A stretch of DNA of 60,119 bases from Clostridiaceae bacterium (GCA_012799695.1 JAAZKT010000006.1:1-60119); one strand, 5' to 3'. Shown: positions 1 to 46,869, counted from the stretch's first letter. Program-made: numbers and translations. The notes: generated from the letters alone by a model not told the origin.

Positions 1-149
1 CCTTTCTTTACAGCGAGGTAGATAAAAATGAGCGCGATCACCACCATGATCAGCTTCCCGGGAATCATCACGCCGAAGAGCTCCGTATCGAAACGGAAAA
101 GCTCCGTGACGCCAGTGCTCTTATAAAAATCTGCGAGTATGTCGAGCAT
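1..149 (-). CDS. mmdB: Na+-translocating decarboxylase beta subunit (OadB/MmdB/GcdB family), N-terminal fragment; the gene continues past the left edge
   Basis: Not in the ORF track, since only 49 codons lie in the window. Complement ATG at 147-149 with AGGAG 6 nt upstream. The translation MLDILADFYKSTGVTELFRFDTELFGVMIPGKLIMVVIALIFIYLAVKKG has the hydrophobic ...LIFxYLAxKK start typical of beta subunits. It lies 9 nt downstream of the biotin-carrier gene. Confidence 0.65.
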   Translation of the reverse strand, partial: MLDILADFYKSTGVTELFRFDTELFGVMIPGKLIMVVIALIFIYLAVKK

Positions 150-158
150 AGAAGACTC

Positions 159-548
159 CTATTTGAATGTGACAAGAAGATCGCCCGAGGAAACAACGAC
201 ACCTTTGCTGGTGTGAACTTTGGCAATTTCACCGTCATGCGGAGCGACGATTTCATTCTCCATCTTCATCGCTTCAATCACGACGAGAATGTCACCGGCT
301 TTCACCTTATCACCGGGCGCGACATCGACGCTTAGAATGGTGCCCTGCAACGGAGCTTTGACGATATCTCCGCCAGATGCTGCCACAGGAGGCGGGGTCG
401 CCTTCGGAGCCGATACGACGGGTGCCGCCGTGGGTATAGCCTTTACAGGTCGCGGCATCGACACTGCGCTCTCCGATTTGACTTCCTCTACTTCAACAAA
501 ATATTCATCTCCATCAATGACGATACGAAACGTCTTAACTGTGGACAT
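159..548 (-). CDS. mmdC: Biotin carboxyl carrier subunit of a membrane decarboxylase (MmdC/GcdC-like)
   Basis: 129 aa. The C-terminal biotinyl domain carries the biotinylation motif EAMKMENEI, preceded by an Ala/Pro-rich linker (PTAAPVVSAPKATPPPVAASG). Confidence 0.85.
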   Translation of the reverse strand: MSTVKTFRIVIDGDEYFVEVEEVKSESAVSMPRPVKAIPTAAPVVSAPKATPPPVAASGGDIVKAPLQGTILSVDVAPGDKVKAGDILVVIEAMKMENEIVAPHDGEIAKVHTSKGVVVSSGDLLVTFK

Positions 549-566
549 ACGATTAACCCTTTCTCT

Positions 567-932
567 TTATAACGAGCGCCTGAGCGACTCTTCCATCCCG
601 GCAGCTTCCCATCCTGAAAGCCCCGCAGATTCACGATAAACACGGCGGACGACCAGCTTGACATCATCGCCCGCATAGGCCTGAATCGCTGCAGATAGCG
701 CGGCGATTTTTTTCGGATTCATCTTCATATCAGAAGCGTCCGATATAGAAAATTCCGATACTTTCAGATCGGAAGAACTAGAATCTTCCTTACTCTTTCT
801 CTGTTTTCTTTTCAAAATGAATGCCGTGATATCCACTAAGTAAGAGATCACGAGCAACACGATGAAAACAAAAACCATATAGATGATCGACAAAACAACG
901 CTACCAACCAGTGTCATATTATCCGGCGTCAT
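567..932 (-). CDS. Small membrane-anchor subunit of a Na+ decarboxylase (OadG/MmdD-like)
   Basis: The ORF track gives 567-974. I prefer ATG at 932 (GAGGTG RBS, 10-nt gap after the carboxyltransferase stop) because the longer form would overlap the upstream gene. It has one N-terminal TM helix (LVGSVVLSIIYMVFVFIVLLVISYLV), then a charged/Ser-rich linker and an ...SGWEAAG... tail. Confidence 0.6.
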   Translation of the reverse strand: MTPDNMTLVGSVVLSIIYMVFVFIVLLVISYLVDITAFILKRKQRKSKEDSSSSDLKVSEFSISDASDMKMNPKKIAALSAAIQAYAGDDVKLVVRRVYRESAGLSGWEAAGMEESLRRSL

Positions 933-942
933 ACTCTCACCT

Positions 943-2490
943 CTACAAAGGGATATTGCCGTGTTTCTTGGCAATTGTCGTTATGCGCTTACCGCGCAAC
1001 GAGTCGAATGATGAGATCAGTCGCTGGCGCGTCTCCTCAGGCAAGATCACATCGTCGAGGTAGCCGCGTTCAGCAGCTACGAACGGGTTCATCATCGCCT
1101 CGGAGTATTCGGCAATCTTCTCATTGCGTTTTTCTTCCGGATCATCGGCGTTGCGAATCTCGCGCGAGAATATAATATTCGCCGCCCCTTCCGCGCCCAT
1201 GACGGCAATCTCAGCGGTTGGCCAACCGAGCACGATATCGCCTCCAAGATGCTTTGAACACATGCCGATATAGGCACCACCATAAGCTTTACGGGTGATC
1301 ACTGTCACTTTCGGCACGCTTGCTTCACTGTAAGCGTACAACATTTTCGCGCCGTGACGAATGATCCCGCCGTACTCCTGTTGCGTACCGGGGAGAAATC
1401 CCGGGACATCGACGAGCGTCAAAAGGGGCACGTTGAATGCGTCACACATACGGATGAATCTCGATGCTTTATCGGATGCGTTGATGTCGAGACAACCCGC
1501 CATCACACGCGGTTGATTGGCGATGACGCCGACGCTTTCACCGTTCAAGCGTATAAATCCAGTAATGATGTTTTGCGCATAATAAGGTTGAACCTCGAAC
1601 AGTGCACCGTCGTCCGCCAGTGCGTAAATCAATTCTTTCATGTCATACGGTGTACGGGGATCCTGCGGGATGAGCGTGTTCAGCTCCCTGATCATTTCAT
1701 TGGGATCGCGGAAACATTCAGTGCGCGCCGGTCTTTCGAGATTGTTTTGAGGCAAGAAGCTCAACAATTGTTTAATTTGGGCGAGACACTCCTCTTCGTT
1801 GGAAGCGCGAAAATGCGCGACGCCGCTCACGCTATTGTGCGTCATCGCACCACCGAGCGTCTGGGATGAGACTTCTTCTCCGGTAACGGCCAAAATGACC
1901 TGCGGTCCCGTGATAAACATCTCACTCGTTTCGTCGACCATAAACACAAAATCCGTGAGCGCCGGCGAATAGACGGCTCCACCGGCACAGGGTCCCATAA
2001 TGACGGAAATTTGCGGAATGACACCTGACGCCTTCGTGTTGTTGAAGAAGATGCGACCGTATCCCGCCAAGGAATCGACGCCTTCCTGAATACGCGCACC
2101 GCCGGAATCGTTGATGGCAATCATCGGAGCACCGACCTTGAGCGCCGCTTCCTGCGTACGCACGATCTTATCGGCGTGCATTTCGCCCAATGAGCCTCCG
2201 ATCACGGTGAAATCCTGAGCCGAGACAAAGACGAGCCTCCCGTCGATCGTACCGTAACCTGTTACGACGCCGTCACCAGGGGCGTTTTTCGTATCCATGC
2301 CGAAGTTTGTCGCCCTGTGTTTGACGAAAAGCCCCGTCTCGACGAAACTCTTTTCATCGAGAAGCTTTTCAATGCGTTCACGTGCCGTCATCTTTCCGCG
2401 TGCGTGCTGGCGTTCGATCGCCGCTTCACCGCCACCCGAAGAGAGAGTTTTCTTCATGTCAAGCAATGCATGTTGTTTATCATCAAGCAA
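943..2490 (-). CDS. mmdA: Acyl-CoA carboxyltransferase, methylmalonyl-CoA decarboxylase alpha subunit type (PccB/MmdA family)
   Basis: 515 aa, collinear from memory with Veillonella MmdA (GKMTARERI, DSGGARIQEGV, MGPCAGGAVYSPALTDF, RKAYGGAY, C-terminal KKHGNIPL). TTG start at 2490 with AAGGAGG 8 nt upstream. Confidence 0.9.
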   Translation of the reverse strand: MLDDKQHALLDMKKTLSSGGGEAAIERQHARGKMTARERIEKLLDEKSFVETGLFVKHRATNFGMDTKNAPGDGVVTGYGTIDGRLVFVSAQDFTVIGGSLGEMHADKIVRTQEAALKVGAPMIAINDSGGARIQEGVDSLAGYGRIFFNNTKASGVIPQISVIMGPCAGGAVYSPALTDFVFMVDETSEMFITGPQVILAVTGEEVSSQTLGGAMTHNSVSGVAHFRASNEEECLAQIKQLLSFLPQNNLERPARTECFRDPNEMIRELNTLIPQDPRTPYDMKELIYALADDGALFEVQPYYAQNIITGFIRLNGESVGVIANQPRVMAGCLDINASDKASRFIRMCDAFNVPLLTLVDVPGFLPGTQQEYGGIIRHGAKMLYAYSEASVPKVTVITRKAYGGAYIGMCSKHLGGDIVLGWPTAEIAVMGAEGAANIIFSREIRNADDPEEKRNEKIAEYSEAMMNPFVAAERGYLDDVILPEETRQRLISSFDSLRGKRITTIAKKHGNIPL

Positions 2491-2526
2491 GTCCGTATCC
2501 TCCTTTATCTTTCAAATCATTAATTG

Positions 2527-4158
2527 TCATTTCTTAAAACTGTCTGGGATCTCATAAAGACCTCCGGACCATTCAACAAGTTCATCGAGCGATTTCGCCG
2601 CGAGAAGGTCTTTCGTCGCGAGCGCGGGGTCGATATCCAGATCATCGGGAAGCGCCACTTTGCCGGCTTTTCTCAGCCTTTCAACCACGGCAGGACTCGC
2701 CATGTCGCCAATCGGCGTCCCTTGCGCAACGGCGCCCATCAGTGTCGTCCTCTCATCTTCACTTTCAGCGAGATAGAGGTACGCAATTCCCTGCTCCGTC
2801 ACGACGTGCGTCACATCTTCACCGTAAACCATGACCGGCACGCTGTCCAAACCGGCATTCCGTCCGATTTCGACAGCGTCGAGCTCCGGGACGAAATTGT
2901 TCCCGAACCGTCCGCTGCTCGACAACATCTGGACGATGAGCTTTTTCCCGCCTATGAGGGAACGACCGGGGTTCGCCATCATTTCTTTCCACGCCGGCGA
3001 TGAATGACGACGTCCTCGCGTGTTATGACCCATATTCGGCGCTCCGCCGAATCCGGAGAGCCTGCCGCTCGTCACCGTCGACGAGTTGCCAAGATAATCC
3101 ATCTGCAACGTCGCGCCAAGGAACAAATCGATGCCGTAAAGTCCCGCCAACTGTGCGTAAGCGCGATTGGAGCGGAGCGTCCCGTCATTCCCCGTAAAGA
3201 AGATATCGGAGCGAGCCTCCGTGTACTTTTCCATACCTTTTTCGCCGCCAAATGCATAGATGCTCTCCACCCAGCCTTTTTCAATCGCGGGAATCATCAT
3301 CGGATGCGGATTGAGTACCCAGTGACGGCAAATTTTTCCTTTCAAGCCGAGGCTTTCACCGTACGTCGGCAAAATGAGTTCGATCGCCGCCCCGTTATAT
3401 CCGATGCCGTGATTGAGCGACATCACGCCATGTTTGGCATAGATCCCCTTGATCGTCATCATCGCCATCAAAATATGCGATTCGCGAATCTTCGCAGGAT
3501 CTCTCGTAAAAAGCGCCTCCATCTGGTACGGCTCATCCGAGCGGACGACAATATCGACCCAGTCACCCGGGATATCAACACGCGGCAGTACGCCCTTTTC
3601 GACGATATCATTGACCTGCACAATGACAATGCCGTCCTTAAATGCGGTCGCTTCGACGAGGATAGGCGTATCTTCCGTACTGTATCCGGTGAAAAGGTTG
3701 CCGTCTTCATCTGCCATCTCCGCGGCGACAAGACAAACATTGGGAATGAGATCGACGAGCAGCCTCGCATACAATTCAAGATATGTGTGAATCGATCCGA
3801 TCTTCAACTGATTGTCTTCCAACATCTTTGCCAACCGCACACTCTGCATGCCTGCAAATGCGAAATTAAGTTCACGCGCGATACCCTTCTCAAAAAGGTC
3901 TAGGTGCTCTTCTCGGGAAACGGCAGGGATCAACATGGTCAGACCGTGCACGATCGCCGGGTCTACCGAAGCAAGCGCCTGTGAAAGAAACGTCGCCTGC
4001 TTCTGGTTGTCACCTTCGAGGACAACGCGATCGTTCGGATAGACAACTGATTCCAACACAGGGACAATATTCTCAGCTTGAATGATCTTCCCGCGCATCA
4101 TATGCGAAGCGCGCTGCAACCGTTCCTGCTTTTTCATCTTTTGCACATTCCATTCCAT
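2527..4158 (-). CDS. mdcA: Malonate decarboxylase alpha subunit family protein (MdcA/MadA-like acyl-carrier:malonate transferase)
   Basis: 543 aa. The N-terminal half matches remembered MdcA sequence blocks (VVLEGDNQKQAxFLS, HLDLFEKGIARxLxFxFAG, IHTYLELYARLLVDLIPNV, EATAFKDGIVIVQVN). AAGGAG RBS before ATG 4158. 36 nt upstream of mmdA. Confidence 0.85.
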   Translation of the reverse strand: MEWNVQKMKKQERLQRASHMMRGKIIQAENIVPVLESVVYPNDRVVLEGDNQKQATFLSQALASVDPAIVHGLTMLIPAVSREEHLDLFEKGIARELNFAFAGMQSVRLAKMLEDNQLKIGSIHTYLELYARLLVDLIPNVCLVAAEMADEDGNLFTGYSTEDTPILVEATAFKDGIVIVQVNDIVEKGVLPRVDIPGDWVDIVVRSDEPYQMEALFTRDPAKIRESHILMAMMTIKGIYAKHGVMSLNHGIGYNGAAIELILPTYGESLGLKGKICRHWVLNPHPMMIPAIEKGWVESIYAFGGEKGMEKYTEARSDIFFTGNDGTLRSNRAYAQLAGLYGIDLFLGATLQMDYLGNSSTVTSGRLSGFGGAPNMGHNTRGRRHSSPAWKEMMANPGRSLIGGKKLIVQMLSSSGRFGNNFVPELDAVEIGRNAGLDSVPVMVYGEDVTHVVTEQGIAYLYLAESEDERTTLMGAVAQGTPIGDMASPAVVERLRKAGKVALPDDLDIDPALATKDLLAAKSLDELVEWSGGLYEIPDSFKK

Positions 4159-4515
4159 CGTCGGGACTCCTTTATTTAATCATTTGCGGGGCAGTGAAAT
4201 AGATCGACACATCCTTTAATCAGATCGATTAACGACAGGTTTCCATGAACATTAGCGAGTAATTCAGCGATATAGCCACTGCCCTTTCTGACACACAAAC
4301 CTGCAATGCTAAACTCACCTTAAAGCTATCACTTGAGCTGTTGAACGTCAAACAATTATCGTACGAATCTTTACAGTTTATTCGTCTCTCAGCGGAAACA
4401 TTTTGTAAGTAAATTGACAAAACCAGCATACCCATCATCTAAAAAGGTTATGCCGATCGCTATAGGTCGGTTCCATGCCAGTTTGCCATCACCAGACAGG
4501 AGACCCTTATGAGTT

Positions 4516-5592
4516 TTATGCTTGAGTTTTCCTCCACGACATTGCCTTCTCGATAAATAGGAGCTTTCTTCTCGGATATTCCGATCCTGCGACAAAAGCC
4601 GAACAGGCGTGCTGTGCTCCCTCGACAACCCAATATTCTTTCAGCTCGGAAGAGCACGCTTCGATCAATTTCTCCGACATCCACGTCGGTACGAATTTAT
4701 CGTCACTACCGTGAATGATGAAGATCGGGACAGTCGCCCTCGCCACAGCGGAAAGTGCGGTCGGATCGTGCAACTTATAACCCATTACGAAATAGAAAAT
4801 TATTTTCGCAAAAAAGATGGCAGGGCCGCGCAGAATAAGATTCATACCGCGCGTAAGCCATTTGCCCTGCTCGACAAGCGATGTAAACCCGCAATCTGCG
4901 ATAACGGCGACCACGTTCTCAGGGAATCGATCATCGCCAGTCGCCGTTAAAACCGTAGCGGCGCCCATCGACAGTCCGTCGAACACGTACCATGCAGGAG
5001 CGTTTTCGCCCAATCGCTTATCTATCTCATCCATCCAAGCAAATAAATCATCATAGTGCTTGCATCCGACATCAATTCTCTTCCCATCACTCGGTTTATG
5101 CGCTCGAAGCGAAGGGAGGAAAACAGAGATGCCCGCCTCAAGATATGGTCGCGCATCGAGTATTCTCGTCCCGCCTACATCGCGCCAACCATGGACAATA
5201 ATGGCGCATCCGTTCTGGAACGCATGATCTCCCATTGATTCCGCAAATGCGGGAATATAGATACCTCTGAGTTTAAGGCCGTCTCGTTCAATTTCAAGTT
5301 CAATCTCATCGCCAGTCAAGAGTCCCTCTCTGACCTTCTGAGCAGTTTTGAAGTAGGCGACAGCTTCCTCAGAAACGTAAGATCTGCTACCTGTATCCTC
5401 CTGCCCTTCAGGAGGTTTCGTCGCATAACGAAACAAGACACGTCCGAGAGACAACTCGAACCATAAATAAACGAGTAGAATAGCGCCGACGGCAATCAAT
5501 ACGATCACCCACGGTTGCGCACTCGCACAGACAAATGGCAACGTTACCGGTTTAAGAAACATCGCCGAAAACTGAGAAATAACAGTCATCAT
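4516..5592 (-). CDS. Membrane-anchored alpha/beta hydrolase
   Basis: 358 aa. N-terminal TM segment (PWVIVLIAVGAILLVYLWF), nucleophile elbow GLSMG, HGSDDKFVP (Asp) and GAQHA (His) in the order expected for a Ser-Asp-His triad. Confidence 0.75.
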   Translation of the reverse strand: MMTVISQFSAMFLKPVTLPFVCASAQPWVIVLIAVGAILLVYLWFELSLGRVLFRYATKPPEGQEDTGSRSYVSEEAVAYFKTAQKVREGLLTGDEIELEIERDGLKLRGIYIPAFAESMGDHAFQNGCAIIVHGWRDVGGTRILDARPYLEAGISVFLPSLRAHKPSDGKRIDVGCKHYDDLFAWMDEIDKRLGENAPAWYVFDGLSMGAATVLTATGDDRFPENVVAVIADCGFTSLVEQGKWLTRGMNLILRGPAIFFAKIIFYFVMGYKLHDPTALSAVARATVPIFIIHGSDDKFVPTWMSEKLIEACSSELKEYWVVEGAQHACSAFVAGSEYPRRKLLFIEKAMSWRKTQA

Positions 5593-5776
5593 CTATACCT
5601 CATCTCCATCTGCCTAGAAATCTGATCATAGAGGGAACTTGTCTATGAGCACACCATCAAATCACTTCATCGCTTATTAATTATAAGTAATCGTGCGGAG
5701 AGGTGCATCGCTGAACGTTCCTTTATAAACAATCCGTTCTACACGTTCGATCTATACATGCCATGGCATACGACAG

Positions 5777-7204
5777 CTAATGGCGGACGATTGGATTCGT
5801 ATACCACTTGCCTTTCTTATAGAGAATGATACCCACAAGAATAATGAGAATATTTGAAGCAAGCATGGAAATCCACAAGCCGGTCGCTCCGAAATTGGTA
5901 AATGTTTTAAACAGGAAAATGAGCGGCAGACGAAAACCCCATAATCGCAAAATGGAAATAAAGGCGGCATACCGATGATACCCCGCCCCGCTGAAAATCC
6001 CGGAAAACGCGTTGAAATATCCCATCGCAGGAGTCATAAGCGCACTATAAATGACGTATTCCAGCGATTGCTCCCAAACGAGGTCGGCATGTACGCCCGT
6101 TTCGCGAATAAAAAGCGACAATATAGGATGGCGCAAAAACCACATCGCGGCACCGCCGATAAGAGTGAAATATGTGATATACCGGAAAGCGGCACGCGCG
6201 AAATCTCGAGCCCTCTCACGATTATCCGCGCCCATGTTCTGTCCGACAAGCGGCGTCAACGCGCCACCAATTCCGGACGCCGGCATCATGATAAAGCTGT
6301 TGACGCGGTTGACAGCGGCGTATGCGGTAATCGTCGCATCTCCGTAGGCAACAATAAGAGAATGCATGAGCGTAAACCCAAGCGCCGCACTTGATTGCCC
6401 CAATGCCGTGGGAAACCCAGTACGAGCGAGCCTTACAAATTGCATTGACGTCAGTTTGGTGTTTTTTAAACGCAGTCTCACTTCGTTGACATTTGATCGA
6501 ATTGCCACCGCCCCTAGTATCATGCGCACCACCTGCGAAATAACAGTCGCCCACGCGGCGCCCGCAATCCCCAACCCTAGTCCGAGAAGATTGATAAGGG
6601 GAATTCGGGTAAATATGAACAATGGGTCGAGAACAATATTCAACACCGCAGAAATCGCACTGATTCTTGTTGTCACGCGTGTCTTACCTTGAGCTCCCAA
6701 TATCGCGTAGAAGGACAGATAAACCATCTCAAACACAAAACCGGTCATCAAAATAGAAAAGTATTTTGTCGCCGATTCTCGCAAAGCTCCCGTTGCGCCC
6801 ATCCATCTGACAATCGAAGGCGATAAAAAATAACCGACAATGGAAAAGAATGCGCCTATGAAAAGACAAAAATAAAAGACATGCGTCGCATACGACTCTG
6901 CTCGTTCACGCTCACCCGCGCCGATCAGTTGCGAAATGATCGCCGTGCCTGCAATCGAAATGCCGATACCCAGTGAAATAAAAAGGTAATGTGGAGGCCA
7001 AATAAAGCTCGTTGCAGAAAACTCGACAAGCGAGAGCTGAGCGACCCAAAGCCCATCTGTCAGATTGTATACTGCATTGATAAAGTTCGTAACCATCAGC
7101 GGAACGGAAACAGAAAAAAGGACCGGGACAATCGGTCCTTCCAAAATAGTTCCCTTACCGGTTTTCTGAGCATTCAGTTGAATCTGTTTTTTGTCTTCGC
7201 CCAT
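5777..7204 (-). CDS. MATE family efflux transporter
   Basis: 475 aa, about 12 hydrophobic segments. The N-terminal block ILEGPIxPVLFSVSVPLMVTNFINAVYNLTDGLWV is typical of MATE/NorM proteins. Confidence 0.85.
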   Translation of the reverse strand: MGEDKKQIQLNAQKTGKGTILEGPIVPVLFSVSVPLMVTNFINAVYNLTDGLWVAQLSLVEFSATSFIWPPHYLFISLGIGISIAGTAIISQLIGAGERERAESYATHVFYFCLFIGAFFSIVGYFLSPSIVRWMGATGALRESATKYFSILMTGFVFEMVYLSFYAILGAQGKTRVTTRISAISAVLNIVLDPLFIFTRIPLINLLGLGLGIAGAAWATVISQVVRMILGAVAIRSNVNEVRLRLKNTKLTSMQFVRLARTGFPTALGQSSAALGFTLMHSLIVAYGDATITAYAAVNRVNSFIMMPASGIGGALTPLVGQNMGADNRERARDFARAAFRYITYFTLIGGAAMWFLRHPILSLFIRETGVHADLVWEQSLEYVIYSALMTPAMGYFNAFSGIFSGAGYHRYAAFISILRLWGFRLPLIFLFKTFTNFGATGLWISMLASNILIILVGIILYKKGKWYTNPIVRH

Positions 7205-7220
7205 AAGTATCTGTCTCTTG

Positions 7221-7868
7221 TCATTGTCGAAGTTCAGAGATTATCTTCTCTAAATACGTCGACTCATGAATTAATCCGTTCATTACATACAGATCACGCG
7301 CTTCGCAAAAAAGTTCGAGCGCCTTCGATACTTCGCCATCCGTCAAACAACAGCGCCCCTTCAATGTCAACAACGCCGCGTATGCCCTATCTGATGTACC
7401 TCTGTCGGCGTAATCATGCGCTAGCCTCAAATAGATGTCACATTCCGCCCGATCACCCAATTCAAGAAAGATCGTCCCCTGCGCGATGTAATTCTCGGCC
7501 AGTCTGGCGAAATAACGGGGCATGGATGACGACAGATAGAGCAATTCTTCACGGTAGTAAGCGATGGCACTCTGTTTATCGTCAAGAGTATGCGCTATTC
7601 TTGCCCGCTCATGCAAAAAATAGGGGCACAGATTCCGGTAGACTTTGCGTTCGCTTACGTCAAGCATTCGCTCAACCAAATGAAGTGCGTCATCAAGGTT
7701 GCCTAAACCAATCAAAGCACGTACCTCGGCCAAACGTGCAAGAGCTTTGAGAGAGGTTTTCGACGGAACTTCTTGAATTAGTTCCGACAAAAGTTCCAAC
7801 GCCTTCGCAAAATGCCCGGCATCGAGAAGGCGATTTGCTTCATCAAGTTTTACTGAGTGAGAATCCAT
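7221..7868 (-). CDS. Tetratricopeptide-repeat (TPR) protein
   Basis: 215 aa, all-helical, with repeated A-x-x-Y/L-x-x-A 34-residue-like units (AKALELLSE..., AIAYYREEL..., ALELFCEARDLY). Function unknown. Confidence 0.55.
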   Translation of the reverse strand: MDSHSVKLDEANRLLDAGHFAKALELLSELIQEVPSKTSLKALARLAEVRALIGLGNLDDALHLVERMLDVSERKVYRNLCPYFLHERARIAHTLDDKQSAIAYYREELLYLSSSMPRYFARLAENYIAQGTIFLELGDRAECDIYLRLAHDYADRGTSDRAYAALLTLKGRCCLTDGEVSKALELFCEARDLYVMNGLIHESTYLEKIISELRQ

Positions 7869-8145
7869 ATTAGTATTTTATCACCGTTGTAGTTTTTGCG
7901 CGCGACTAATTTGTTACATCGATGATCTCATTGTTCACAATTTGTTTGCCATCTTCCTGCACTTCTACTGTACAATATGAATAGTGACAAAGGAGGGGGG
8001 CTATATTTTTTCTTCGAACAACCACTTGAAGAAAATTGTTTTTGTTGTGCTCCTCTATCTTTCAACGTAAGACTATCTCGTTGTGGCGTCACTTCAAACG
8101 CACGCCGAGAACTTCTCCGGCGCGCAATAATTGAAAGGATCGGTA

Positions 8146-8676
8146 ATGATTGGACGTAATATCGGGAGATTTTTACTACAAGGTGAAGACTCGTTGATGA
8201 TTGATGCCGCTCAGTGTGCCACCGTTAGAACTGAAAACACACTCCTTCATGCATTATTGTTGCTCTCAAGTGTCGGCTTTACGTCGGTTCCCGTTTTAGA
8301 TGAATCGTCCCGCGTCGCGGGCATTATTACCATGCCGTCTATCATCAACGGTTTGCTCGATAACGAAGACTATAATTGGGATCTTCTGCCCGTTCGAAAA
8401 GTGAAAGAGGTCATGACGAATAATGTACCTCGCGTTTTCAGGGACTCCCCTTTCGAGGATGTTCTCCACGTTTTAGTCAACTCCAACTACCTGTGCGTCA
8501 CGGAACGAGATAACACTTTCCTCGGTATCATCGCAAGAAAACAGTTATTGAAGCGTGTGAACAGGTTGGCGCACGAGTTTGAACTTTTTTATGAGGTCAA
8601 AGAACGAACGAAAGACAAAGTTAAAGAAGCACCATCACATGATTTTGCGGAAGATGATATTCAATTCAAACTATAA
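8146..8676 (+). CDS. CBS-pair domain protein (CbpB/YkuL-like)
   Basis: The ORF track starts at TTG 8131. ATG 8146 has AAAGGA 6 nt upstream. Two CBS motifs (GFTSVPVLDESSRVAGIIT; NYLCVTERDNTFLGIIARKQLL). Size and layout resemble Bacillus YkuL / Listeria CbpB. Confidence 0.7.
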   Translation: MIGRNIGRFLLQGEDSLMIDAAQCATVRTENTLLHALLLLSSVGFTSVPVLDESSRVAGIITMPSIINGLLDNEDYNWDLLPVRKVKEVMTNNVPRVFRDSPFEDVLHVLVNSNYLCVTERDNTFLGIIARKQLLKRVNRLAHEFELFYEVKERTKDKVKEAPSHDFAEDDIQFKL

Positions 8677-8760
8677 AAAACGATCAGTTTCGGAAGTCTT
8701 ATTGAACATAATAGGTATAGCTACATAAAAATCGAGCGCTAACAAATAGTATGAACAAAG

Positions 8761-8800
8761 AAAGGGAGGTTGCTCACATGAAACGACCTCCCTTTTCCAT
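8761..8800. terminator. Bidirectional intrinsic terminator between the convergent CBS gene and rplL
   Basis: AAAGGGAGGT (8761-8770) pairs with ACCTCCCTTT (8786-8795). T-runs follow the stem on both strands. Confidence 0.55.
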
Positions 8801-8824
8801 TTGAATCGGTTATCAATCGAATCG

Positions 8825-9208
8825 TTACTCGATCTCGACTTCCGCACCGGCTTCCTTAAGCTTGTTGGCGGCATCTTCCGCTTCCTCGCGGCTAACCTTT
8901 TCTTTGATCGGCTTTGGTGCTTCGTCGACGAGAGCTTTAGCTTCTTTCAAGCCGAGTCCCGTAATCTCACGCACCGCTTTAATGACAGCGATTTTCGCCT
9001 GTCCTGCATTCTTGAGAACGACGTCGAATTCCGTCTTCTCTTCTTCTTCCGCTGCGCCTGCGGGACCGCCGGCTACAGGTGCCGCAACCGCCATCGCGGC
9101 AGCGGAAACACCAAATTCGTCTTCCATCATTTTCACGAGTTCATTCAGTTCAAGAATCGTCAGACCTTTTATGTCTTCAAGGATTCCGGCGAGTTTTTCG
9201 TTACCCAT
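8825..9208 (-). CDS. rplL: 50S ribosomal protein L7/L12
   Basis: Product is [34 protein letters not shown]...[13 protein letters not shown] 9208 is preceded by AGGAGG; the track ORF (to 9247) is an upstream in-frame extension. Confidence 0.95.
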
Positions 9209-9354
9209 ATTCAGTCTACCTCCTGATGTAGATCGAGTTCGCCTCATGCGAACCTCTGTTTGTTATTTTTTAGTATTACTGTCCATCATGTTCTATTAGG
9301 ACAGAGTAAGGAAGCAACATGCATACGACTGCTAGTGCTTCATTGGTTCCGGAG

Positions 9355-10032
9355 CTACGAAGACACTTCTTCTGCGTCTTTCTCCACTTCTTCACTTGCT
9401 TCGGCGGACGCTTCTTCCGTGGCTTTCTCGGCGTCGGCTTTTGCGTCTTTCTCAGCGGCATCTGCCTCTTTCGGCTCATCCTCAGTAACGGTTTTACCGT
9501 CCGTCGTCAATAAATCGGCAACTCTCTCGACACCGGTTTCGGCACCTTTTTCCGCGATTTGACCGGCAACTTGAGCTAACGCCGTCAACGGATAGAGCAT
9601 CATGAAAAGCAACTGACCGTACAAGTTTTCGCGCGACTCCACTCGTGACAGCGCCATAATGTAATCGATATCATGGACTTCTCCGCCGATCACGCCGCCC
9701 TTGATCTTAAGTCTTCTGAACTTCTCGGTAAACTCACGCACCATGCGCGGAGCGAGAACGACGTCTTCCGAGCTGTAAGCAATGGCAGTCGGTCCCTTAA
9801 GCGTCTCTTCCAGCCCTCTGATGCCGAGCTGTTCAAATGCTCGTTCCGAGATCGTGTTTTTGACGACACGATATGTGAGGCCTTTGTTCCTGAAAGCTGC
9901 ACGCATTTCAGTATCTTGCTTAACGGTTAGACCCTTAAAGTCCGCAAACACGATTGATTCTGCGTTTTTCAACTCGTCGACGAGCGATGTGACTTGTTTT
10001 CTCTTTCTCTCCAGTACTTTTTCACTGGGCAT
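9355..10032 (-). CDS. rplJ: 50S ribosomal protein L10 with a roughly 50-aa acidic C-terminal extension
   Basis: The N-terminal 170 aa are typical L10 (KQVTSLVDELKNAESIVFADFKGLTVKQDTEMR). GAAGGAGG RBS. The tail is TEDEPKEADAAEKDAKADAEKATEEASAEASEEVEKDAEEVSS. Confidence 0.9.
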   Translation of the reverse strand: MPSEKVLERKRKQVTSLVDELKNAESIVFADFKGLTVKQDTEMRAAFRNKGLTYRVVKNTISERAFEQLGIRGLEETLKGPTAIAYSSEDVVLAPRMVREFTEKFRRLKIKGGVIGGEVHDIDYIMALSRVESRENLYGQLLFMMLYPLTALAQVAGQIAEKGAETGVERVADLLTTDGKTVTEDEPKEADAAEKDAKADAEKATEEASAEASEEVEKDAEEVSS

Positions 10033-10214
10033 GCGACACTTACCTCCTTCTAAATATTTAACACCCCTCCGCGAATGGCAGAGGGGCGCACAAAAAGTTG
10101 GTCCATCTACCTCGGCGGGACAGCTTGACCTGTTTATATCGAAAACGATTCCTGCTTTCTTCGGCGTTGAAGGTATTATTCTGTTTTGCGCCCATTATAC
10201 GATGGGCGATCGTC
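10033..10214 (-). promoter_or_regulatory. Candidate L10 (rplJ) leader / attenuator
   Basis: 182-nt untranslated gap between rplA and rplJ. On the minus strand, the stem CCCCTC/GAGGGG (10064-10069 / 10081-10086) is followed by a U-rich stretch just before the rplJ RBS. A second hairpin CGCCCAT/ATGGGCG follows the rplA stop. L10-leader autoregulation is known in Firmicutes, but no covariance-model search was run. Confidence 0.45.
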
Positions 10215-10907
10215 TTACTTCGAGAGCTTCGGGTTCGTGCGAACACCGGGGCCCATCGTGCTCGCCAGCGTGCAGCGACGGATGTATTGTCCTTTCGCTG
10301 CGGCCGGTTTCGCTCTGATCACGGCATCGAGCAATGCGTCAAAGTTATCGCGCAACTTTTCCACGCCGAACGATACTTTGCCGATGACGCAGTGAATGAT
10401 GTTCTGTCTCTCGAGTCTATACTCAATACGACCGGCTTTCGCCTCACTGACGGCTTGCGCCACGTCAGGCGTCACCGTGCCGGATTTCGGGTTCGGCATC
10501 AGTCCGCGAGGTCCGAGCACGCGACCGAGGCGGCCGACGATACCCATCATATCCGGTGTCGCGATCGCAACGTCAAACTCGAGCCAACCTTCTTTTTGAA
10601 TCTTTTCTGCGAGATCTTCCGCCCCGACATAGTCGGCACCCGCTTCTTTTGCCTGGTCTGCCGCAGGGCCTTTGGCAAACACGAGCACTCTCATCTCTTT
10701 ACCCGTTCCGTGGGGAAGTACAACTGTTCCGCGAATCTGCTGATCGGCTCGGCGCGAGTCGACGCCCATGCGAAGATGGATCTCAACCGTCTCATCGAAC
10801 TTTGCCGTCGCACTCTTGATCACAAGTTCAAGAGCCTCATCCGGTTCGTACGTCTTCTGGGGATCAACCAGTTTCGCAGCTTCAATATAACGTTTACCGC
10901 GTTTCAT
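10215..10907 (-). CDS. rplA: 50S ribosomal protein L1
   Basis: 230 aa, [15 protein letters not shown]...[19 protein letters not shown]. Confidence 0.95.
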
Positions 10908-10925
10908 GACAGGTCCTCCCCTCTC

Positions 10926-11357
10926 TTATTTGTCGTAATCGACGACGATGCCCATGCTGCGGGCGGTCCCTGCCACCATGCGCGCGGCGGATTCCACGTC
11001 CGACGCATTCATGTCTTCCATCTTGATCTCGGCAATGCGTATGCATTCCGACCAAGGCACGGTCGCAACTTTTTTTGAATCGGGTTCGCCCGATCCCTTT
11101 TCCAAGTTACATGCTTTTTTGAGCAACACGGGGGCCGGCGGAGTTTTCGTAATGAATGAATACGTACGATCCTGATACACCGTAATCACGACGGGGATCA
11201 CAAGACCGATGTCTTTTTGTGTCCGTTCATTAAATTCTCTGACAAACTGGGCAATATTGAGCCCATGTTGTCCAAGAGCTGGTCCGACCGGCGGCGCCGG
11301 CGTCGCTTGTCCCGCCGGAATCTGAAGCTTCACATAGGCGGTAATCGGTTTAGCCAT
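10926..11357 (-). CDS. rplK: 50S ribosomal protein L11
   Basis: [35 protein letters not shown]... ATG 11357 is preceded by GGAGGTGG; the track ORF adds 5 upstream codons. Confidence 0.95.
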
Positions 11358-11491
11358 AGAGCCACCTCCCATTTCTTTTTGATCCTGTTAAGGATACTGA
11401 CTTAATTATGATCAAGGCAGAAATCTTCTGCCGTCTCATCATCTATATCTAAAAAACAGCAAGTCTTCCGCACTCGCGGCGAAGATGCCGC

Positions 11492-12046
11492 TTACGGCTG
11501 GCGGATGACCTGCGTCAACTCCAACTCGACAGGAGTCTCGCGGCCGAACATCGAGACGATGACGGTCACCTTCTTCTTGTCGATGTTGATCTCGTCAACT
11601 TTTCCGTCGAAACCTGCCAGGGGCCCGTTGATGATGCGCACTTCATCACCTACGTCATAATCCATGACGGGCTCCCAATCGGAATCAAGCCCCATCATGC
11701 CGAGCTCATCATCCGTCAGCGGTACGGGATTCGTGCTGGACGGGCCGACAAAACCTGTGACGCCGCGCGTATTGCGGACGATATACCAGATATCGTCGGT
11801 TAGAATCATTTTGACGAGAACGTATCCCGGATAAATCTTCCGTTCAAATGTACGACGTTTCCCGTCTTTGATCTCGAGAACAGTCTCGACAGGGATGAGG
11901 ACTTCCTGAATCATATCCTGAAGTCCGCGGTTCTCAATAATCATCTCAAGCGTCGCCTTGACGCGTTTCTCGTATCCGGAATACGTGTGGATGACGTACC
12001 AGAGCGCTTCTTGGCCGTTTTTGTCAGAAGTCTCCGCCATCATCAT
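11492..12046 (-). CDS. nusG: Transcription termination/antitermination factor NusG
   Basis: NGN block WYVIHTYSGYEKRVKATLE and KOW block GDEVRIINGPLAGFDGKVDEI. Overlaps the secE stop by 4 nt. Confidence 0.95.
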   Translation of the reverse strand: MMMAETSDKNGQEALWYVIHTYSGYEKRVKATLEMIIENRGLQDMIQEVLIPVETVLEIKDGKRRTFERKIYPGYVLVKMILTDDIWYIVRNTRGVTGFVGPSSTNPVPLTDDELGMMGLDSDWEPVMDYDVGDEVRIINGPLAGFDGKVDEINIDKKKVTVIVSMFGRETPVELELTQVIRQP

Positions 12047-12411
12047 ACTCCGATGTTCCGGACAGACTCGCCGGGATTCAATGTATCGGAAATCGCGGGA
12101 GGTTCCGTTATTTCAGGAGTAGTCGCAGGCTTCGATGAATAGAATCCCGTAGTGCGCAGAATGAATCCGATCAAAGAATCAAAAACGAGAATCATAATGG
12201 TCGAAAGCGCAATGATCAACAGGACCGTCAACGTGCTTTGCTTCAGTTTCTTTTTGTCGGGCCACATGACGCGCTTTAATTCCATGATGATATTGACAAA
12301 CCATTTTTTCAGACGTGCAAAAATTGACGGCTTAGCGTCTTTTTTCGTTACTGCGCGTTTCGTTCCTTTTTTGCCGCGGTCTACCGCACTTTTTCCCTTT
12401 TTGCTCGCCAT
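12043..12411 (-). CDS. secE: Preprotein translocase subunit SecE (extended at both termini)
   Basis: Core is FVNIIMELKRVMWPDKKKLKQSTLTVLLIIALSTIMILVFDSLIGF. Lys-rich N-terminus and a roughly 35-aa Pro/Thr-rich C-terminal tail. Sits in the conserved rpmG-secE-nusG position. Confidence 0.85.
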   Translation of the reverse strand: MASKKGKSAVDRGKKGTKRAVTKKDAKPSIFARLKKWFVNIIMELKRVMWPDKKKLKQSTLTVLLIIALSTIMILVFDSLIGFILRTTGFYSSKPATTPEITEPPAISDTLNPGESVRNIGV

Positions 12412-12435
12412 AAGATCACTCCCGTGAGTACACCA

Positions 12436-12600
12436 TTATTTCGTTTCGCGATGAATCGTATGCTTGTTGCAGAACTTGCAAAACTTACTCAACTCCACCT
12501 TTTCAGGCGTATGCATCTTATTCTTCTTTGTATTGTAATTACGCTGTTTGCATTCCGAGCATGCAAGCGTAATTCTCTCTCGTGCACCCGGTTTTGCCAT
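12436..12600 (-). CDS. rpmG: 50S ribosomal protein L33
   Basis: Absent from the ORF track (54 aa). My own translation gives [54 protein letters not shown] with the two CxxC pairs. GGAGGAAACCACC precedes ATG 12600. Confidence 0.9.
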
Positions 12601-12682
12601 GGTGGTTTCCTCCACTTATTTCATGTATCGAGACAGCTTGTCCGCGCAAAAAAAAAGACTCCGGCGTCCGACAAGCAGAAGT

Positions 12683-12712
12683 ATACTAACACGAAGCAAG
12701 CGACCGTGTCAA
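12683..12712 (-). promoter_or_regulatory. Candidate sigma-A promoter of the rpmG-secE-nusG unit
   Basis: On the minus strand: TTGACA (12707-12712), 18-nt spacer, then TAGTAT (12683-12688) with a TG two bases upstream. Confidence 0.45.
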
Positions 12713-12735
12713 ATGGGAGTTTTTTAGGAAAGCTG

Positions 12736-13332
12736 CTACCAGACGACCGCCCGGTCCTGTGCCTCGCGGATCGCACGCCCCAAGATAATCTCCGGCGGTT
12801 CGATCTGAAGATCGAGTCCGTCAGCCACCACGTAGTCGAATTCGTTAATGCCGAAGAATGTCGCGAGATTCCGCATCATCGGTATGCCCGTCTCAAGAGG
12901 CGATTGACTGTAATCTGATCCCCGCGTCGTCAGGAAAAACATCTTTTCGGCGCGACAGATCCCGAAAAGCCCCGCATTGTCGTCAACGTCAAAGGTAATT
13001 CCCTGCACGCTGACGTTTTCAATATAGATTTTCAAGAGAGCCGGCACACTCAAATCCCAAAATGGAGCGGCAATGACAATGCGGTCAGCTGAAGCGAATT
13101 GGTGCGCGTAGCGAAATCTAGGATGAGACAGCTCCCCGTTTGCGAGGAGTCGTTCGCGCTGCAAGAAGAAATCGCCTGTAAGAGGGACGAGAGGTTCTTC
13201 CATGAGCGTCAACCGTTCGACCGTAAAAGCCTCTCGGATTGCAAGACCGAAGAGAAAGGCCTCCCCCAATTGACGTGTACGAGATTCCTCTCCGCGAATA
13301 CAACAATCAATGTATAAGACATTTGTCGTCAT
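12736..13332 (-). CDS. Flavodoxin-fold NAD(P)H-dependent oxidoreductase (FMN azoreductase / quinone reductase-like)
   Basis: I prefer ATG 13332 (MTTNVLYIDCC...) to the track start 13380. The block IVIAAPFWDLSVPALLKIYIE resembles the AzoR/ACP-phosphodiesterase-type PxYNFxxPxxLKxxID region. Confidence 0.65.
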   Translation of the reverse strand: MTTNVLYIDCCIRGEESRTRQLGEAFLFGLAIREAFTVERLTLMEEPLVPLTGDFFLQRERLLANGELSHPRFRYAHQFASADRIVIAAPFWDLSVPALLKIYIENVSVQGITFDVDDNAGLFGICRAEKMFFLTTRGSDYSQSPLETGIPMMRNLATFFGINEFDYVVADGLDLQIEPPEIILGRAIREAQDRAVVW

Positions 13333-13425
13333 GTGTTTTCCCTCGAAACGACTCCATACGGTCGTTTTCCCCAAAATCATTTGTAAACGTATTATCCACC
13401 GGTACCACAGTCATTCATCGCTGCA

Positions 13426-46836: not shown

Positions 46837-46869
46837 ATGCTACCTCTTCCTCTCGCTTGTCCGTCATTG

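What the first reader, a model, noticed from the sequence alone, without database searches (positions are those of the whole stretch)
1..4158. MdcA-type malonate transferase in one operon with an Mmd-type biotin/Na+ decarboxylase: candidate hybrid malonate-decarboxylating sodium pump
Seen in the sequence:
- Five co-directional ORFs (2527-4158, 943-2490, 567-932, 159-548, 1-149) are separated by only 9-36 nt, each with its own AGGAG-type RBS, behind a 357-nt non-coding region.
- The first product carries blocks I recognise from malonate decarboxylase alpha subunits.
- The other four are collinear with Veillonella/Propionigenium methylmalonyl-CoA decarboxylase: a single-chain 515-aa carboxyltransferase, an OadG-like anchor, an EAMKM biotin carrier and a membrane beta subunit.

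Established knowledge:
- In Klebsiella mdc and Malonomonas rubra mad systems, the alpha subunit loads malonate onto a dedicated ACP carrying 2'-(5''-phosphoribosyl)-3'-dephospho-CoA.
- Malonomonas uses a split MadC/MadD carboxyltransferase.
- Mmd-type enzymes act on CoA thioesters and can accept malonyl-CoA.

Inference:
- No ACP, MdcB/MdcG or MadC/D genes are in this operon, so this would be a third architecture. An MdcA homologue, acting as a malonate:acyl-CoA transferase or using a shared ACP, would feed a CoA-type Na+ pump.
- That would be a genetic basis for the malonate-via-malonyl-CoA route described physiologically in some anaerobes.
- The only prosthetic-group machinery in the window is citXG (35540-37150), and the only ACP is the citD-like gene (45308-45595).
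Basis: partly seen in the sequence, partly recalled or inferred. Interest (0 to 1): 0.7.

Follow-up and report, generated by a model that had tools for sequence, protein, structure and literature searches.

The report
CoA-type malonate-decarboxylating sodium pump operon
An anaerobic-digester bacterium has a malonate-activating enzyme in one operon with a biotin-dependent sodium-pumping decarboxylase and no carrier-protein genes, which points to an undescribed gene layout for gaining energy from malonate, possibly malonate made from pyrimidines.

Summary
Five tightly spaced minus-strand genes encode:
- a full-length MdcA (TIGR01110, 808 bits, cutoff 789);
- a single-chain PccB/MmdA-type acyl-CoA carboxyltransferase;
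- an OadG-like anchor;
- an EAMKM biotin carrier;
- the start of an OadB-type Na+ pump subunit.

An identical contig continues the operon with full oadB, an amidase, birA and bioY. No mdcC/D/E/B/G/H or madC/D genes occur in 415 kb of the window plus 21 related loci.

The mdcA–carboxyltransferase pair is conserved in Saccharofermentanales, Synergistaceae and Erysipelotrichaceae MAGs, where these MdcAs form one clade. All ten malonate-binding and catalytic residues of Pseudomonas MdcA are invariant in 119 relatives. The residues that dock the carrier protein MdcC (F424, E466) are never kept.

The window's citD/citXG genes belong to a citramalate-lyase/methylaspartate cluster.

Best reading: malonate + acetyl-CoA → malonyl-CoA → carboxybiotin → CO2, with Na+ export. 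This would be a third, ACP-independent malonate decarboxylase architecture. It is inferred, not assayed.

Neighbouring genes (XDH-like, AllFGH-like, cyclase-family hydrolase, amidase) recur with MdcA homologues in Spirochaetota. They suggest the malonate comes from pyrimidine breakdown.

I found no publication describing this arrangement.

The parts
2527..4158 (-). mdcA-type gene (543 aa). Proposed malonate:acetyl-CoA CoA-transferase.
   Evidence: PF16957, 852 bits; TIGR01110, 808 bits, cutoff 789. Matches P. aeruginosa MdcA (5vit_A) with E 3e-220. Residues N59, Y134, R228, N258, I261, N292, F312, R341, Q345 and G381 are all identical. MdcC-interface residues change: F424 to S, E466 to Q, I490 to G.
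943..2490 (-). Single-chain acyl-CoA:biotin carboxyltransferase (515 aa, TTG start), MmdA/PccB type. Proposed malonyl-CoA carboxyltransferase.
   Evidence: Carboxyl_trans, 672.7 bits, residues 27-513. TIGR01117 mmdA, 859 bits, below the 998.8 cutoff. Best PDB matches are propionyl-CoA carboxylase beta subunits at E about 1e-202. It is 80-97% identical in all MdcA-linked loci.
567..932 (-). OadG/MmdD-like membrane anchor (121 aa).
   Evidence: PF04277, 40.5 bits, cutoff 27. TIGR01195, 33.1 bits, just under its 36.05 cutoff. Conserved in position in the related loci.
159..548 (-). Biotin carboxyl carrier protein (129 aa) with an EAMKM biotinylation motif.
   Evidence: PF00364, 67.5 bits. MmdC model NF047903, 95.6 bits, below its cutoff. 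The motif is visible in the translation.
1..149 (-). First 49 codons of the oadB/mmdB-type Na+-translocating carboxybiotin decarboxylase. The gene runs off the left edge of the window.
   Evidence: In the identical contig L004 the gene is 387 aa. TIGR01109, 478.8 bits, cutoff 190.6. Equivalents of OadB D203, Y229, N373, G377, S382 and R389 are conserved against 6iva.
4159..4515 (-). 357-nt upstream non-coding region. It holds a conserved block of about 60 nt (4379-4318) that includes a TTGACG -35-like hexamer (4351-4346). Probable promoter/operator.
   Evidence: The block is conserved even in L010, whose flanking sequence has diverged. The 69-aa ORF in this region is not kept in relatives. No Rfam family matched.
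4516..5592 (-). Membrane-anchored alpha/beta-hydrolase (358 aa), co-directional and upstream. It is a conserved neighbour, but whether it belongs to the unit is uncertain.
   Evidence: Weak or faint Pfam Hydrolase_4 / Abhydrolase hits. Present upstream of mdcA at 43-89% identity in all Saccharofermentanales-type loci.

Best explanation
The operon encodes an ACP-independent, biotin-dependent, Na+-pumping malonate decarboxylase that works through free CoA thioesters.

Proposed steps:
1. The MdcA homologue transfers CoA from acetyl-CoA to malonate, giving malonyl-CoA and acetate.
2. The MmdA/PccB-type carboxyltransferase moves the free carboxyl group of malonyl-CoA onto the biotin of the carrier protein. 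This regenerates acetyl-CoA.
3. The OadB-type membrane subunit, held together with the others by the OadG-like anchor, decarboxylates carboxybiotin and exports Na+.

The net reaction is malonate + H+ → acetate + CO2, with a sodium gradient as the energy yield.

birA and bioY, downstream in the same gene string, supply the holo-biotin carrier. The amidase, the last gene before them, probably produces the malonate from an amide precursor.

What is shown: the gene content, the order, the conservation and the residue patterns. What is inferred: the CoA (rather than ACP) specificity, malonyl-CoA as the pump's substrate, and Na+ coupling.
For: Family membership and active sites
- MdcA scores above the curated cutoff.
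- All ten active-site residues defined in the Pseudomonas structure (PMC5534430) are invariant in the window protein and in 119 of 119 close homologues.
- The Na+-site and catalytic residues of OadB are conserved, and the carrier has the EAMKM motif.

No carrier-protein system
- The MdcC-docking residue F424 (the F424A mutation abolishes the holoenzyme; PMC5534430) is kept in 0 of 119 homologues, and so is E466.
- Both residues are kept in loci that carry mdcC/D/E/G/B/H.
- tblastn with MdcC, MdcE, MdcG and MdcH found nothing in 415 kb of the window plus 21 loci. The same approach finds these genes in the control locus L017.
- The carboxyltransferase is of the single-chain acyl-CoA type.

Conservation
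- The operon is conserved in 9 Saccharofermentanales-type MAG loci, a Synergistaceae MAG and an Erysipelotrichaceae MAG.
- The Mmd-linked MdcAs form one clade in a neighbour-joining tree.
- The Erysipelotrichaceae locus adds a divergent LysR regulator and an AEC-family (Mem_trans) carrier. From my own knowledge, these are the families of MdcR and MdcF in Klebsiella.

Feasibility
- Isolated MdcA has been used as an acetyl-CoA/malonate CoA-transfer catalyst in vitro (PMC8288269).
- Malonate decarboxylase of Pseudomonas ovalis is cited as having malonate CoA-transferase activity (PMC8307300).
Against: - No biochemical or transcript data exist.
- I could not search the whole genome, so an ACP and its modifying enzymes could be encoded elsewhere. 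The window does hold a CitD-type ACP and CitXG about 31-41 kb away.
- The carboxyltransferase falls below the mmdA trusted cutoff, and its acyl-CoA specificity cannot be read from sequence. The position equivalent to PccB D422 is Ile, which is not discriminating.
- One relative (L030) lacks oadB, and a gut MAG locus (L037) has only mdcA plus the carboxyltransferase. The pump is therefore not an obligatory partner.
- All carriers found are uncultured MAGs.
Confidence: 0.65

Rival explanations
1. It is a Malonomonas-like ACP-dependent system whose ACP and prosthetic-group enzymes are encoded in trans. MdcA would load malonate onto a shared ACP (for example the CitD-type ACP at 45308-45595, modified by CitXG at 35540-37150), and the carboxyltransferase would accept malonyl-S-ACP.
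For: MdcA is a family II ACP transferase in all characterised systems (PMC5534430). The window does encode a CitD-type ACP and a fused CitX-CitG. The whole genome could not be searched.
Against: - The ACP and CitXG sit with glutamate mutase, methylaspartase, a mesaconase-like fumarase and CitE/CitF homologues. That is a citramalate-lyase set which accounts for them.
- The MdcC-docking residues F424 and E466 are lost in 119 of 119 clade members.
- The Synergistaceae and Erysipelotrichaceae loci show no ACP within 8-10 kb on either side.
- The carboxyltransferase is of the acyl-CoA (PccB/MmdA) type, not the MadC/MadD or MdcD/E type.
Confidence: 0.1
2. The operon is an ordinary methylmalonyl-CoA decarboxylase of a succinate/propionate-type pathway. 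The MdcA homologue would serve as a CoA-transferase for methylmalonate, succinate or propionate rather than malonate.
For: Gene order and subunit set match mmdADCB-type operons, and TIGR01117 is the best model for the carboxyltransferase. From my own knowledge, Mmd enzymes act mainly on (S)-methylmalonyl-CoA.
Against: - The malonate pocket of MdcA (R341, N292, Q345, F312) is completely conserved.
- The carboxyltransferase scores below the mmdA trusted cutoff.
- No methylmalonyl-CoA mutase or epimerase appeared in the annotated parts of the window or in the related loci.
- LysR and AEC-carrier neighbours resemble malonate regulons.
- Methylmalonate (for example from thymine) as a second substrate is not excluded.
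Confidence: 0.1
3. The complex runs as a transcarboxylase, or in reverse, making malonyl-CoA or malonate (Na+-driven carboxylation of acetyl-CoA) rather than conserving energy from malonate.
For: Variants without oadB exist: L030, and L037 with only mdcA plus the carboxyltransferase. A carboxyltransferase plus carrier could pass CO2 to another acceptor.
Against: - The full pump set with intact Na+-site residues is the conserved state.
- The gene context is catabolic: amidase, permeases, XDH-like enzyme, LysR and PucR regulators.
- No second carboxyltransferase or acceptor-specific subunit is nearby.
Confidence: 0.05
4. The adjacency is incidental. mdcA and the decarboxylase genes would be functionally unrelated neighbours or separate transcription units.
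For: Co-transcription was not measured. The 36-nt gap could in principle hold a weak promoter.
Against: The adjacency persists from 97% down to 67% MdcA identity, across three bacterial families, while the surrounding genes change. No intergenic terminator-like site was found.
Confidence: 0.05

Closest known systems
Malonomonas rubra biotin-dependent malonate decarboxylase (mad cluster)
   Same: It has an MdcA/MadA-type transferase. It also has a biotin carrier and an OadB-type membrane decarboxylase that couple malonate decarboxylation to Na+ export (PMC5534430; PMC8085960).
   Different: Mad uses a dedicated ACP with a phosphoribosyl-dephospho-CoA group, its activating enzymes and a split MadC/MadD carboxyltransferase. 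Here no ACP or activation genes were found, and the carboxyltransferase is a single PccB/MmdA-type chain. The beta subunit scores only 184 bits on the MadB model against a cutoff of 597.
Klebsiella/Pseudomonas biotin-independent malonate decarboxylase (mdcABCDEGH)
   Same: The alpha subunit is a clear homologue. It matches 5vit_A with E 3e-220 and has an identical active site.
   Different: There is no MdcC, MdcD/E, MdcB, MdcG or MdcH, and the MdcC-docking residues are not conserved. Decarboxylation would be biotin- and membrane-dependent.
Veillonella/Propionigenium Na+-translocating methylmalonyl-CoA decarboxylase (mmdADCB)
   Same: Same subunit set and order (alpha carboxyltransferase, OadG-like delta, biotin carrier, beta pump). 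It acts on CoA thioesters and, from my own knowledge, can accept malonyl-CoA.
   Different: The alpha subunit falls below the curated mmdA cutoff (859 against 998.8). The operon is headed by mdcA and followed by an amidase, birA and bioY. No mutase or epimerase context was seen.
Sporomusa malonica malonate fermentation via malonyl-CoA (physiological description, Dehning and Schink; recalled from my own knowledge)
   Same: The proposed chemistry is the same: CoA transfer from acetyl-CoA to malonate, then a biotin-dependent malonyl-CoA decarboxylation.
   Different: To my knowledge no genes were assigned.
Glutaconate CoA-transferase plus glutaconyl-CoA decarboxylase of Acidaminococcus/Fusobacterium
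   Same: The logic is the same: a CoA-transferase activates a dicarboxylate, and a biotin-dependent Na+ pump decarboxylates the CoA ester (PMC8473912).
   Different: The transferase family differs (family I GctAB against family II MdcA-type), and so do the substrate and the carboxyltransferase clade.

Membership tests
MdcA / malonate decarboxylase alpha subunit (TIGR01110, PF16957) | Full-length match above the curated equivalog score | tested here: met
   TIGR01110, 808.2 bits, cutoff 789.15. PF16957, 852 bits, residues 2-542.
MdcA / malonate decarboxylase alpha subunit (TIGR01110, PF16957) | Malonate-binding and oxyanion residues of the P. aeruginosa structure (N59, Y134, R228, N258, I261, N292, F312, R341, Q345, G381) | tested here: met
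   All are identical in the window protein. They are invariant in 119 of 119 close homologues, apart from I261V in nine of them.
MdcA / malonate decarboxylase alpha subunit (TIGR01110, PF16957) | MdcC (ACP) docking surface, including F424, whose mutation abolishes the holoenzyme | tested here: not met
   F424 becomes S, Q, R, K or A. E466 becomes Q or H. I490 becomes mostly G. This holds in the whole Mmd-linked clade, while loci with mdcC keep F and E.
MdcA / malonate decarboxylase alpha subunit (TIGR01110, PF16957) | Encoded with mdcC, mdcD/E and mdcB/G/H | tested here: not met
   tblastn found no MdcC, MdcE, MdcG or MdcH in the window plus 21 loci (415 kb). The control locus L017 has all of them.
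MdcA / malonate decarboxylase alpha subunit (TIGR01110, PF16957) | Acetyl-S-ACP:malonate ACP-transferase activity | not testable with these tools
   This needs an enzyme assay.
Na+-translocating methylmalonyl-CoA decarboxylase (Mmd) | Alpha carboxyltransferase above the TIGR01117 trusted score | tested here: not met
   859.3 bits against a cutoff of 998.8. It is a full-length Carboxyl_trans protein.
Na+-translocating methylmalonyl-CoA decarboxylase (Mmd) | OadG-type anchor, biotin carrier with the AMKM motif, and gene order A-D-C-B | tested here: met
   PF04277, 40.5 bits, above 27. PF00364, 67.5 bits, with EAMKM. The order is seen in the window and in L004.
Na+-translocating methylmalonyl-CoA decarboxylase (Mmd) | Beta subunit of the Na+ pump decarboxylase family with the conserved Asp203, Tyr229, Asn373, Gly377, Ser382 and Arg389 equivalents | tested here: met
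   TIGR01109, 478.8 bits, above 190.6. The residues are conserved in the alignment to 6iva. The residue list comes from my own knowledge of OadB mutagenesis.
Na+-translocating methylmalonyl-CoA decarboxylase (Mmd) | Preference for (S)-methylmalonyl-CoA and a link to the mutase/epimerase pathway | tested here: inconclusive
   No mutase or epimerase appears in the annotated window parts or related loci. The whole genome was not searched, and specificity cannot be read from sequence.
Malonomonas-type biotin-dependent malonate decarboxylase (Mad) | Dedicated ACP (MadE) with MadG/MadH activation, and a split MadC/MadD carboxyltransferase | tested here: not met
   No ACP or activation genes are in or near the operon. 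The carboxyltransferase is a single 515-aa chain.
Malonomonas-type biotin-dependent malonate decarboxylase (Mad) | MadB-type beta subunit (TIGR03136) | tested here: not met
   184.1 bits against a cutoff of 596.9.

The most novel reading that the evidence does not exclude
The operon may be the last module of an undescribed anaerobic, energy-yielding oxidative pyrimidine pathway.

Proposed steps:
1. The neighbouring XDH-like molybdoenzyme oxidises uracil to barbiturate.
2. The cyclase-family (PF04199) hydrolase opens the ring to ureidomalonate.
3. The AllH/AllF/AllG homologues cleave ureidomalonate with phosphate into carbamoyl phosphate and malonamate. This is analogous to oxalurate → oxamate, and the carbamoyl phosphate could yield ATP.
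4. The operon's amidase gives malonate.
5. The MdcA-Mmd pump converts malonate to acetate + CO2 with Na+ export.

Comparative support:
- The AllH-AllF-57aa-AllG-cyclase-amidase-permease module lies next to an MdcA homologue in Spirochaetota.
- A Synergistaceae locus places an NCS1 permease, a cytosine-deaminase-like gene and an XDH-like enzyme directly upstream of the same mdcA operon.
- Alkaliphilus metalliredigens has the same module, with a CN-hydrolase and a family III CoA-transferase in place of the amidase and MdcA.
Probability: 0.3. Interest if true: 0.8.

Novelty: new variant of a known kind. Interest (0 to 1): 0.62.

Why it matters
Two malonate decarboxylase architectures are described: the soluble Mdc system and the membrane Mad system. 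Both depend on a special acyl carrier protein. One review table lists malonate CoA-transferase (EC 2.8.3.3) without a KEGG gene entry (PMC8307300).

If this operon works as proposed, it would:
- supply genes for the malonate-via-malonyl-CoA fermentation route, which I recall from Dehning and Schink and did not check in the paper library;
- add a fourth physiological substrate class to the Na+-pumping biotin decarboxylases;
- identify a natural MdcA clade that works with free CoA, which is useful for malonyl-CoA supply in biotechnology.

The clade is common in anaerobic-digester and gut metagenomes: more than 120 clusters at 90% identity, some seen on hundreds of contigs. It may therefore matter for carbon and nitrogen flow from nucleobases in those systems.

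Tried and rejected
- **PccB D422 specificity position.** The window protein has Ile (GGAYIGM). Bona fide PCC beta subunits 1vrg and 3n6r have I or V, so the position does not separate malonyl-CoA from methylmalonyl-CoA specificity.
- **A hidden ACP gene in the 357-nt upstream region.** The only ORF (69 aa, 4229-4438) is not conserved in relatives, so I reject it as a gene.
- **A riboswitch or leader RNA.** No Rfam match with E below 0.5 in 1-6000.
- **Promoter and terminator scans.** Hits were near chance and intragenic.
- **Amidase identity.** No curated NCBIfam model reaches its cutoff. The nearest structure is peptide amidase 1m21; malonamidase E2 and allophanate hydrolase are distant. The substrate stays open. 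A biotin-salvage role seems less likely, because in L038 and L012-L016 a divergent LysR gene separates the amidase from birA-bioY.
- **Cultured carriers of the mdcA-mmdA operon.** All ten cluster look-ups returned MAGs only.
- **Literature.** Seven full-text searches found no description of an MdcA-Mmd hybrid or of an anaerobic barbiturate route.
- **My first ORF calls in L028 and L029.** They missed AllH and put AllG on the wrong strand. I corrected this with Pfam-annotated contigs and tblastn.

Full report
**1. The observation**

The gaps between them are 36, 10, 18 and 9 nt. Each start is preceded by a purine-rich RBS-like motif. A 357-nt non-coding stretch (4159-4515) lies upstream.

Profile searches give these assignments:
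- MdcA: PF16957, 852 bits; TIGR01110, 808.2 bits, above the curated 789.15 cutoff.
- A full-length Carboxyl_trans protein whose best NCBIfam model is mmdA (TIGR01117). It scores 859 bits, below the 998.8 cutoff.
- An OAD_gamma protein.
- A biotinyl carrier with an EAMKM motif.

Pattern scans show no intergenic terminator-like site, and no Rfam family matches in 1-6000.

**2. Extension beyond the window**

The MdcA protein occurs on many contigs from anaerobic-digester metagenomes and MAGs. One of them, JAGONR010000002.1 (assembly GCA_017992945.1, locus L004), is 100% identical to window 1-14158 and continues to the left.

The fifth ORF there is a 387-aa OAD_beta protein (TIGR01109, 478.8 bits, cutoff 190.6). 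It scores only 184 bits on the Malonomonas MadB model, whose cutoff is 597. Aligned with the solved OadB (6iva), it keeps the equivalents of D203, Y229, N373, G377, S382 and R389. That residue list comes from my own knowledge of OadB mutagenesis.

After oadB come three more co-directional genes: a 492-aa amidase-signature enzyme, a biotin-protein ligase and BioY.

Further left lie:
- convergent XDH-family FAD, FeS and Mo subunits;
- a divergent string of PucR, AllH, AllF, a 57-aa ORF, AllG and a PF04199 "cyclase" hydrolase;
- then the housekeeping genes rimP-nusA-infB.

**3. Conservation**

A scan of one genome per species returned 21 loci with MdcA relatives. Eight of the nine closest (70-97% MdcA identity) carry mdcA followed by the carboxyltransferase; they are MAGs labelled Clostridiaceae, Mageeibacillus, Clostridia or Saccharofermentanales. 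Where the contigs reach far enough, oadG, BCCP, oadB, the amidase, birA and bioY follow. The ninth, L013, is a 3.4-kb contig that holds only mdcA. Some loci have a divergent LysR gene between the amidase and birA.

Other loci with the same core:
- A Synergistaceae MAG (L038) has the same operon.
- An Erysipelotrichaceae MAG (L039) has it without the amidase, but with a divergent LysR regulator and an AEC-family Mem_trans carrier. From my own knowledge, these are the families of Klebsiella MdcR and MdcF.
- A gut-type locus (L037) has only LysR-mdcA-carboxyltransferase.
- L040 has LysR-mdcA beside a biotin ligase.
- L030 lacks oadB.

The conserved core is therefore the mdcA-carboxyltransferase pair, usually with the full pump. 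In a neighbour-joining tree rooted on the window's CitF homologue, all Mmd-linked MdcAs form one clade, separate from the canonical ones. All carriers identified are uncultured MAGs.

**4. ACP or CoA?**

As a positive control, locus L017 shows the canonical set by Pfam: mdcA, ACP (PF06857), MdcD, MdcE, MdcG, CitG-type MdcB and MdcH. L026 shows mdcA-ACP-MdcD.

I then ran tblastn with these control proteins against the window plus 21 Mmd-linked or related loci (415 kb). MdcC, MdcE, MdcG and MdcH found nothing. MdcD hit only the N-terminal half of the carboxyltransferase. MdcB hit only the CitG half of the window's CitXG.

The Pseudomonas holoenzyme structure defines two sets of residues (PMC5534430):
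- the malonate pocket and oxyanion residues of MdcA;
- the residues that dock MdcC. Of the single-site mutations tested in that interface, only F424A abolished assembly.

In the window protein and 119 of 119 close homologues all ten active-site residues are kept. F424 and E466 are kept in none, and I490 is mostly Gly. The loci that encode MdcC keep F424 and E466.

The window's only ACP (45308-45595) lies within a string of mesaconase-like fumarase, GntR, GlmS, MutL, GlmE and methylaspartase genes, followed by the ACP, CitE-like and CitF-like genes. This is a methylaspartate-pathway cluster whose lyase is most simply read as citramalate lyase. CitXG at 35540-37150 serves it.

Together these results favour a free-CoA substrate over a shared ACP. 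The whole genome was not searched, so this remains an inference.

Feasibility has outside support. An isolated MdcA has been used to make malonyl-CoA by CoA transfer in vitro (PMC8288269). A CoA-transferase activity of malonate decarboxylase is cited in PMC8307300.

**5. Mechanism proposed**

1. Malonate + acetyl-CoA → malonyl-CoA + acetate (MdcA homologue).
2. Malonyl-CoA + biotin-BCCP → acetyl-CoA + carboxybiotin (carboxyltransferase).
3. Carboxybiotin + H+ → CO2, with Na+ export (OadB with OadG).

BirA and BioY provide the cofactor. The parts and their conservation are shown. Substrate specificities, Na+ coupling and co-transcription are inferred.

The sequence test for acyl-CoA specificity was uninformative. 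The position equivalent to PccB D422 is Ile here, and it is I or V in genuine PCC beta subunits.

**6. Where might the malonate come from?**

The amidase is the last gene of the mdcA transcription unit in loci where LysR separates it from birA-bioY. Its nearest structure is peptide amidase. No curated family claims it.

Three observations link the operon to N-heterocycle breakdown:
- The module AllH-AllF-small ORF-AllG-cyclase, followed by an amidase-signature enzyme, a 231-aa unknown and a xanthine/uracil-family permease, lies convergent to an MdcA homologue in Spirochaetota MAGs L028 and L027, and partly in L024.
- In cultured Alkaliphilus metalliredigens QYMF the order is XDH-like, permease, PucR, AllH, AllF, small ORF, AllG, cyclase. 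A CN-hydrolase and a family III CoA-transferase then follow in place of the amidase and MdcA.
- In the Synergistaceae locus, an NCS1 permease, a PreA-like protein, an XDH-like enzyme and a cytosine-deaminase-like protein (413 bits, cutoff 438) sit directly upstream of mdcA.

The only established nucleobase route to malonate that I know of is the oxidative pyrimidine pathway: uracil → barbiturate → ureidomalonate → malonate. Ureidomalonate is the one-carbon-longer homologue of oxalurate, the substrate of AllFGH.

I therefore propose, as a hypothesis only, that this island is an anaerobic version of that pathway, ending in the sodium pump. Seven literature searches found no description of either the hybrid decarboxylase or such a pathway.

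**7. Verdict**

The system combines known modules in a new way: an MdcA-type transferase and an Mmd-type pump, with no ACP system. I class it as a new variant of a known kind.

My confidence in the CoA-dependent malonate pump model is about 0.65. The pyrimidine-origin reading is more novel and less certain, at about 0.3.

Noticed in passing
window 43006-52659 (minus strand): A complete methylaspartate-pathway cluster for glutamate fermentation. It runs: class I fumarase-like (mesaconase) subunits, GntR, GlmS (B12-binding), MutL, GlmE, methylaspartate ammonia-lyase, then a CitD-type ACP, a CitE-like and a CitF-like gene (probable citramalate lyase).
   Followed up: partly
window 35540-37150 (minus strand): A fused CitX-CitG gene (536 aa) lies about 6-8 kb from the lyase genes. 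It is separated from them by glycosyltransferase, epimerase and Na+/alanine symporter genes.
   Followed up: partly
L004 18566-21632; L029 1-12415; L042 1-10804 (left of the window in the same or near-identical genomes): An island of XDH-family FAD, FeS and Mo subunits, PucR, AllH, AllF, a conserved 57-aa ORF, AllG and a PF04199 cyclase-family hydrolase. It ends at rimP-nusA-infB. None of the usual allantoin-pathway genes are present.
   Followed up: partly
L028 11750-20002; L027 10073-15025; L024 11748-13025: In Spirochaetota MAGs the AllH-AllF-small ORF-AllG-cyclase-amidase-231-aa unknown-Xan_ur permease string lies convergent to an MdcA homologue (51% identity; Q345 is replaced by H). No decarboxylase genes are nearby.
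   Followed up: partly
L043 (Alkaliphilus metalliredigens QYMF, CP000724, 722111-742914): A cultured organism has XDH-like, permease, PucR, AllH, AllF, a 56-aa ORF, AllG and cyclase, followed by a CN-hydrolase and a family III CoA-transferase. This looks like non-orthologous replacement of the amidase and MdcA, and it offers an experimental handle.
   Followed up: no
L038 1-8020 (Synergistaceae MAG JAAYGF010000023.1): An NCS1 cytosine/purine permease, LacI, a PreA-like dihydropyrimidine-dehydrogenase-type protein, XDH-like subunits and a cytosine-deaminase-like amidohydrolase lie directly upstream of the mdcA-mmd operon.
   Followed up: partly
L030 14230-19680 (MTKW01000478.1): A relative has mdcA, the carboxyltransferase, a truncated oadG remnant, BCCP and the amidase, but no oadB. 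It may be a pump-less variant or a rearrangement.
   Followed up: partly
L037 8966-13277; L040 42-3987: Reduced layouts occur in other metagenome contigs. L037 has LysR-mdcA-carboxyltransferase only, on a protein seen on 336 contigs. L040 has LysR-mdcA next to a biotin-protein ligase, in a protein cluster with 2690 member sequences.
   Followed up: no
window 4318-4379 (minus strand): A block of about 60 nt upstream of mdcA is conserved even where the flanking non-coding DNA has diverged (L010). It contains a TTGACG -35-like hexamer and may be a promoter/operator.
   Followed up: partly
window 4516-5592 (minus strand): An alpha/beta-hydrolase with an N-terminal hydrophobic stretch that looks membrane-spanning is conserved just upstream of mdcA in all Saccharofermentanales-type loci (43-89% identity). 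Its role is unknown.
   Followed up: no
L022 6465-11104 (Desulfocapsaceae MAG); L018 6968-11641: Other orphan MdcA homologues sit beside TRAP transporters. In L022 there is also a family III CoA-transferase, 41% identical to the Alkaliphilus one. No mdcC/D/E were found next to them.
   Followed up: no
window 29491-31434 (minus strand): A 647-aa gene carries both PGK and TIM Pfam domains, which suggests a fused phosphoglycerate kinase-triosephosphate isomerase. It is followed by iPGM and a 1178-aa pyruvate:ferredoxin oxidoreductase (24276-27812).
   Followed up: no
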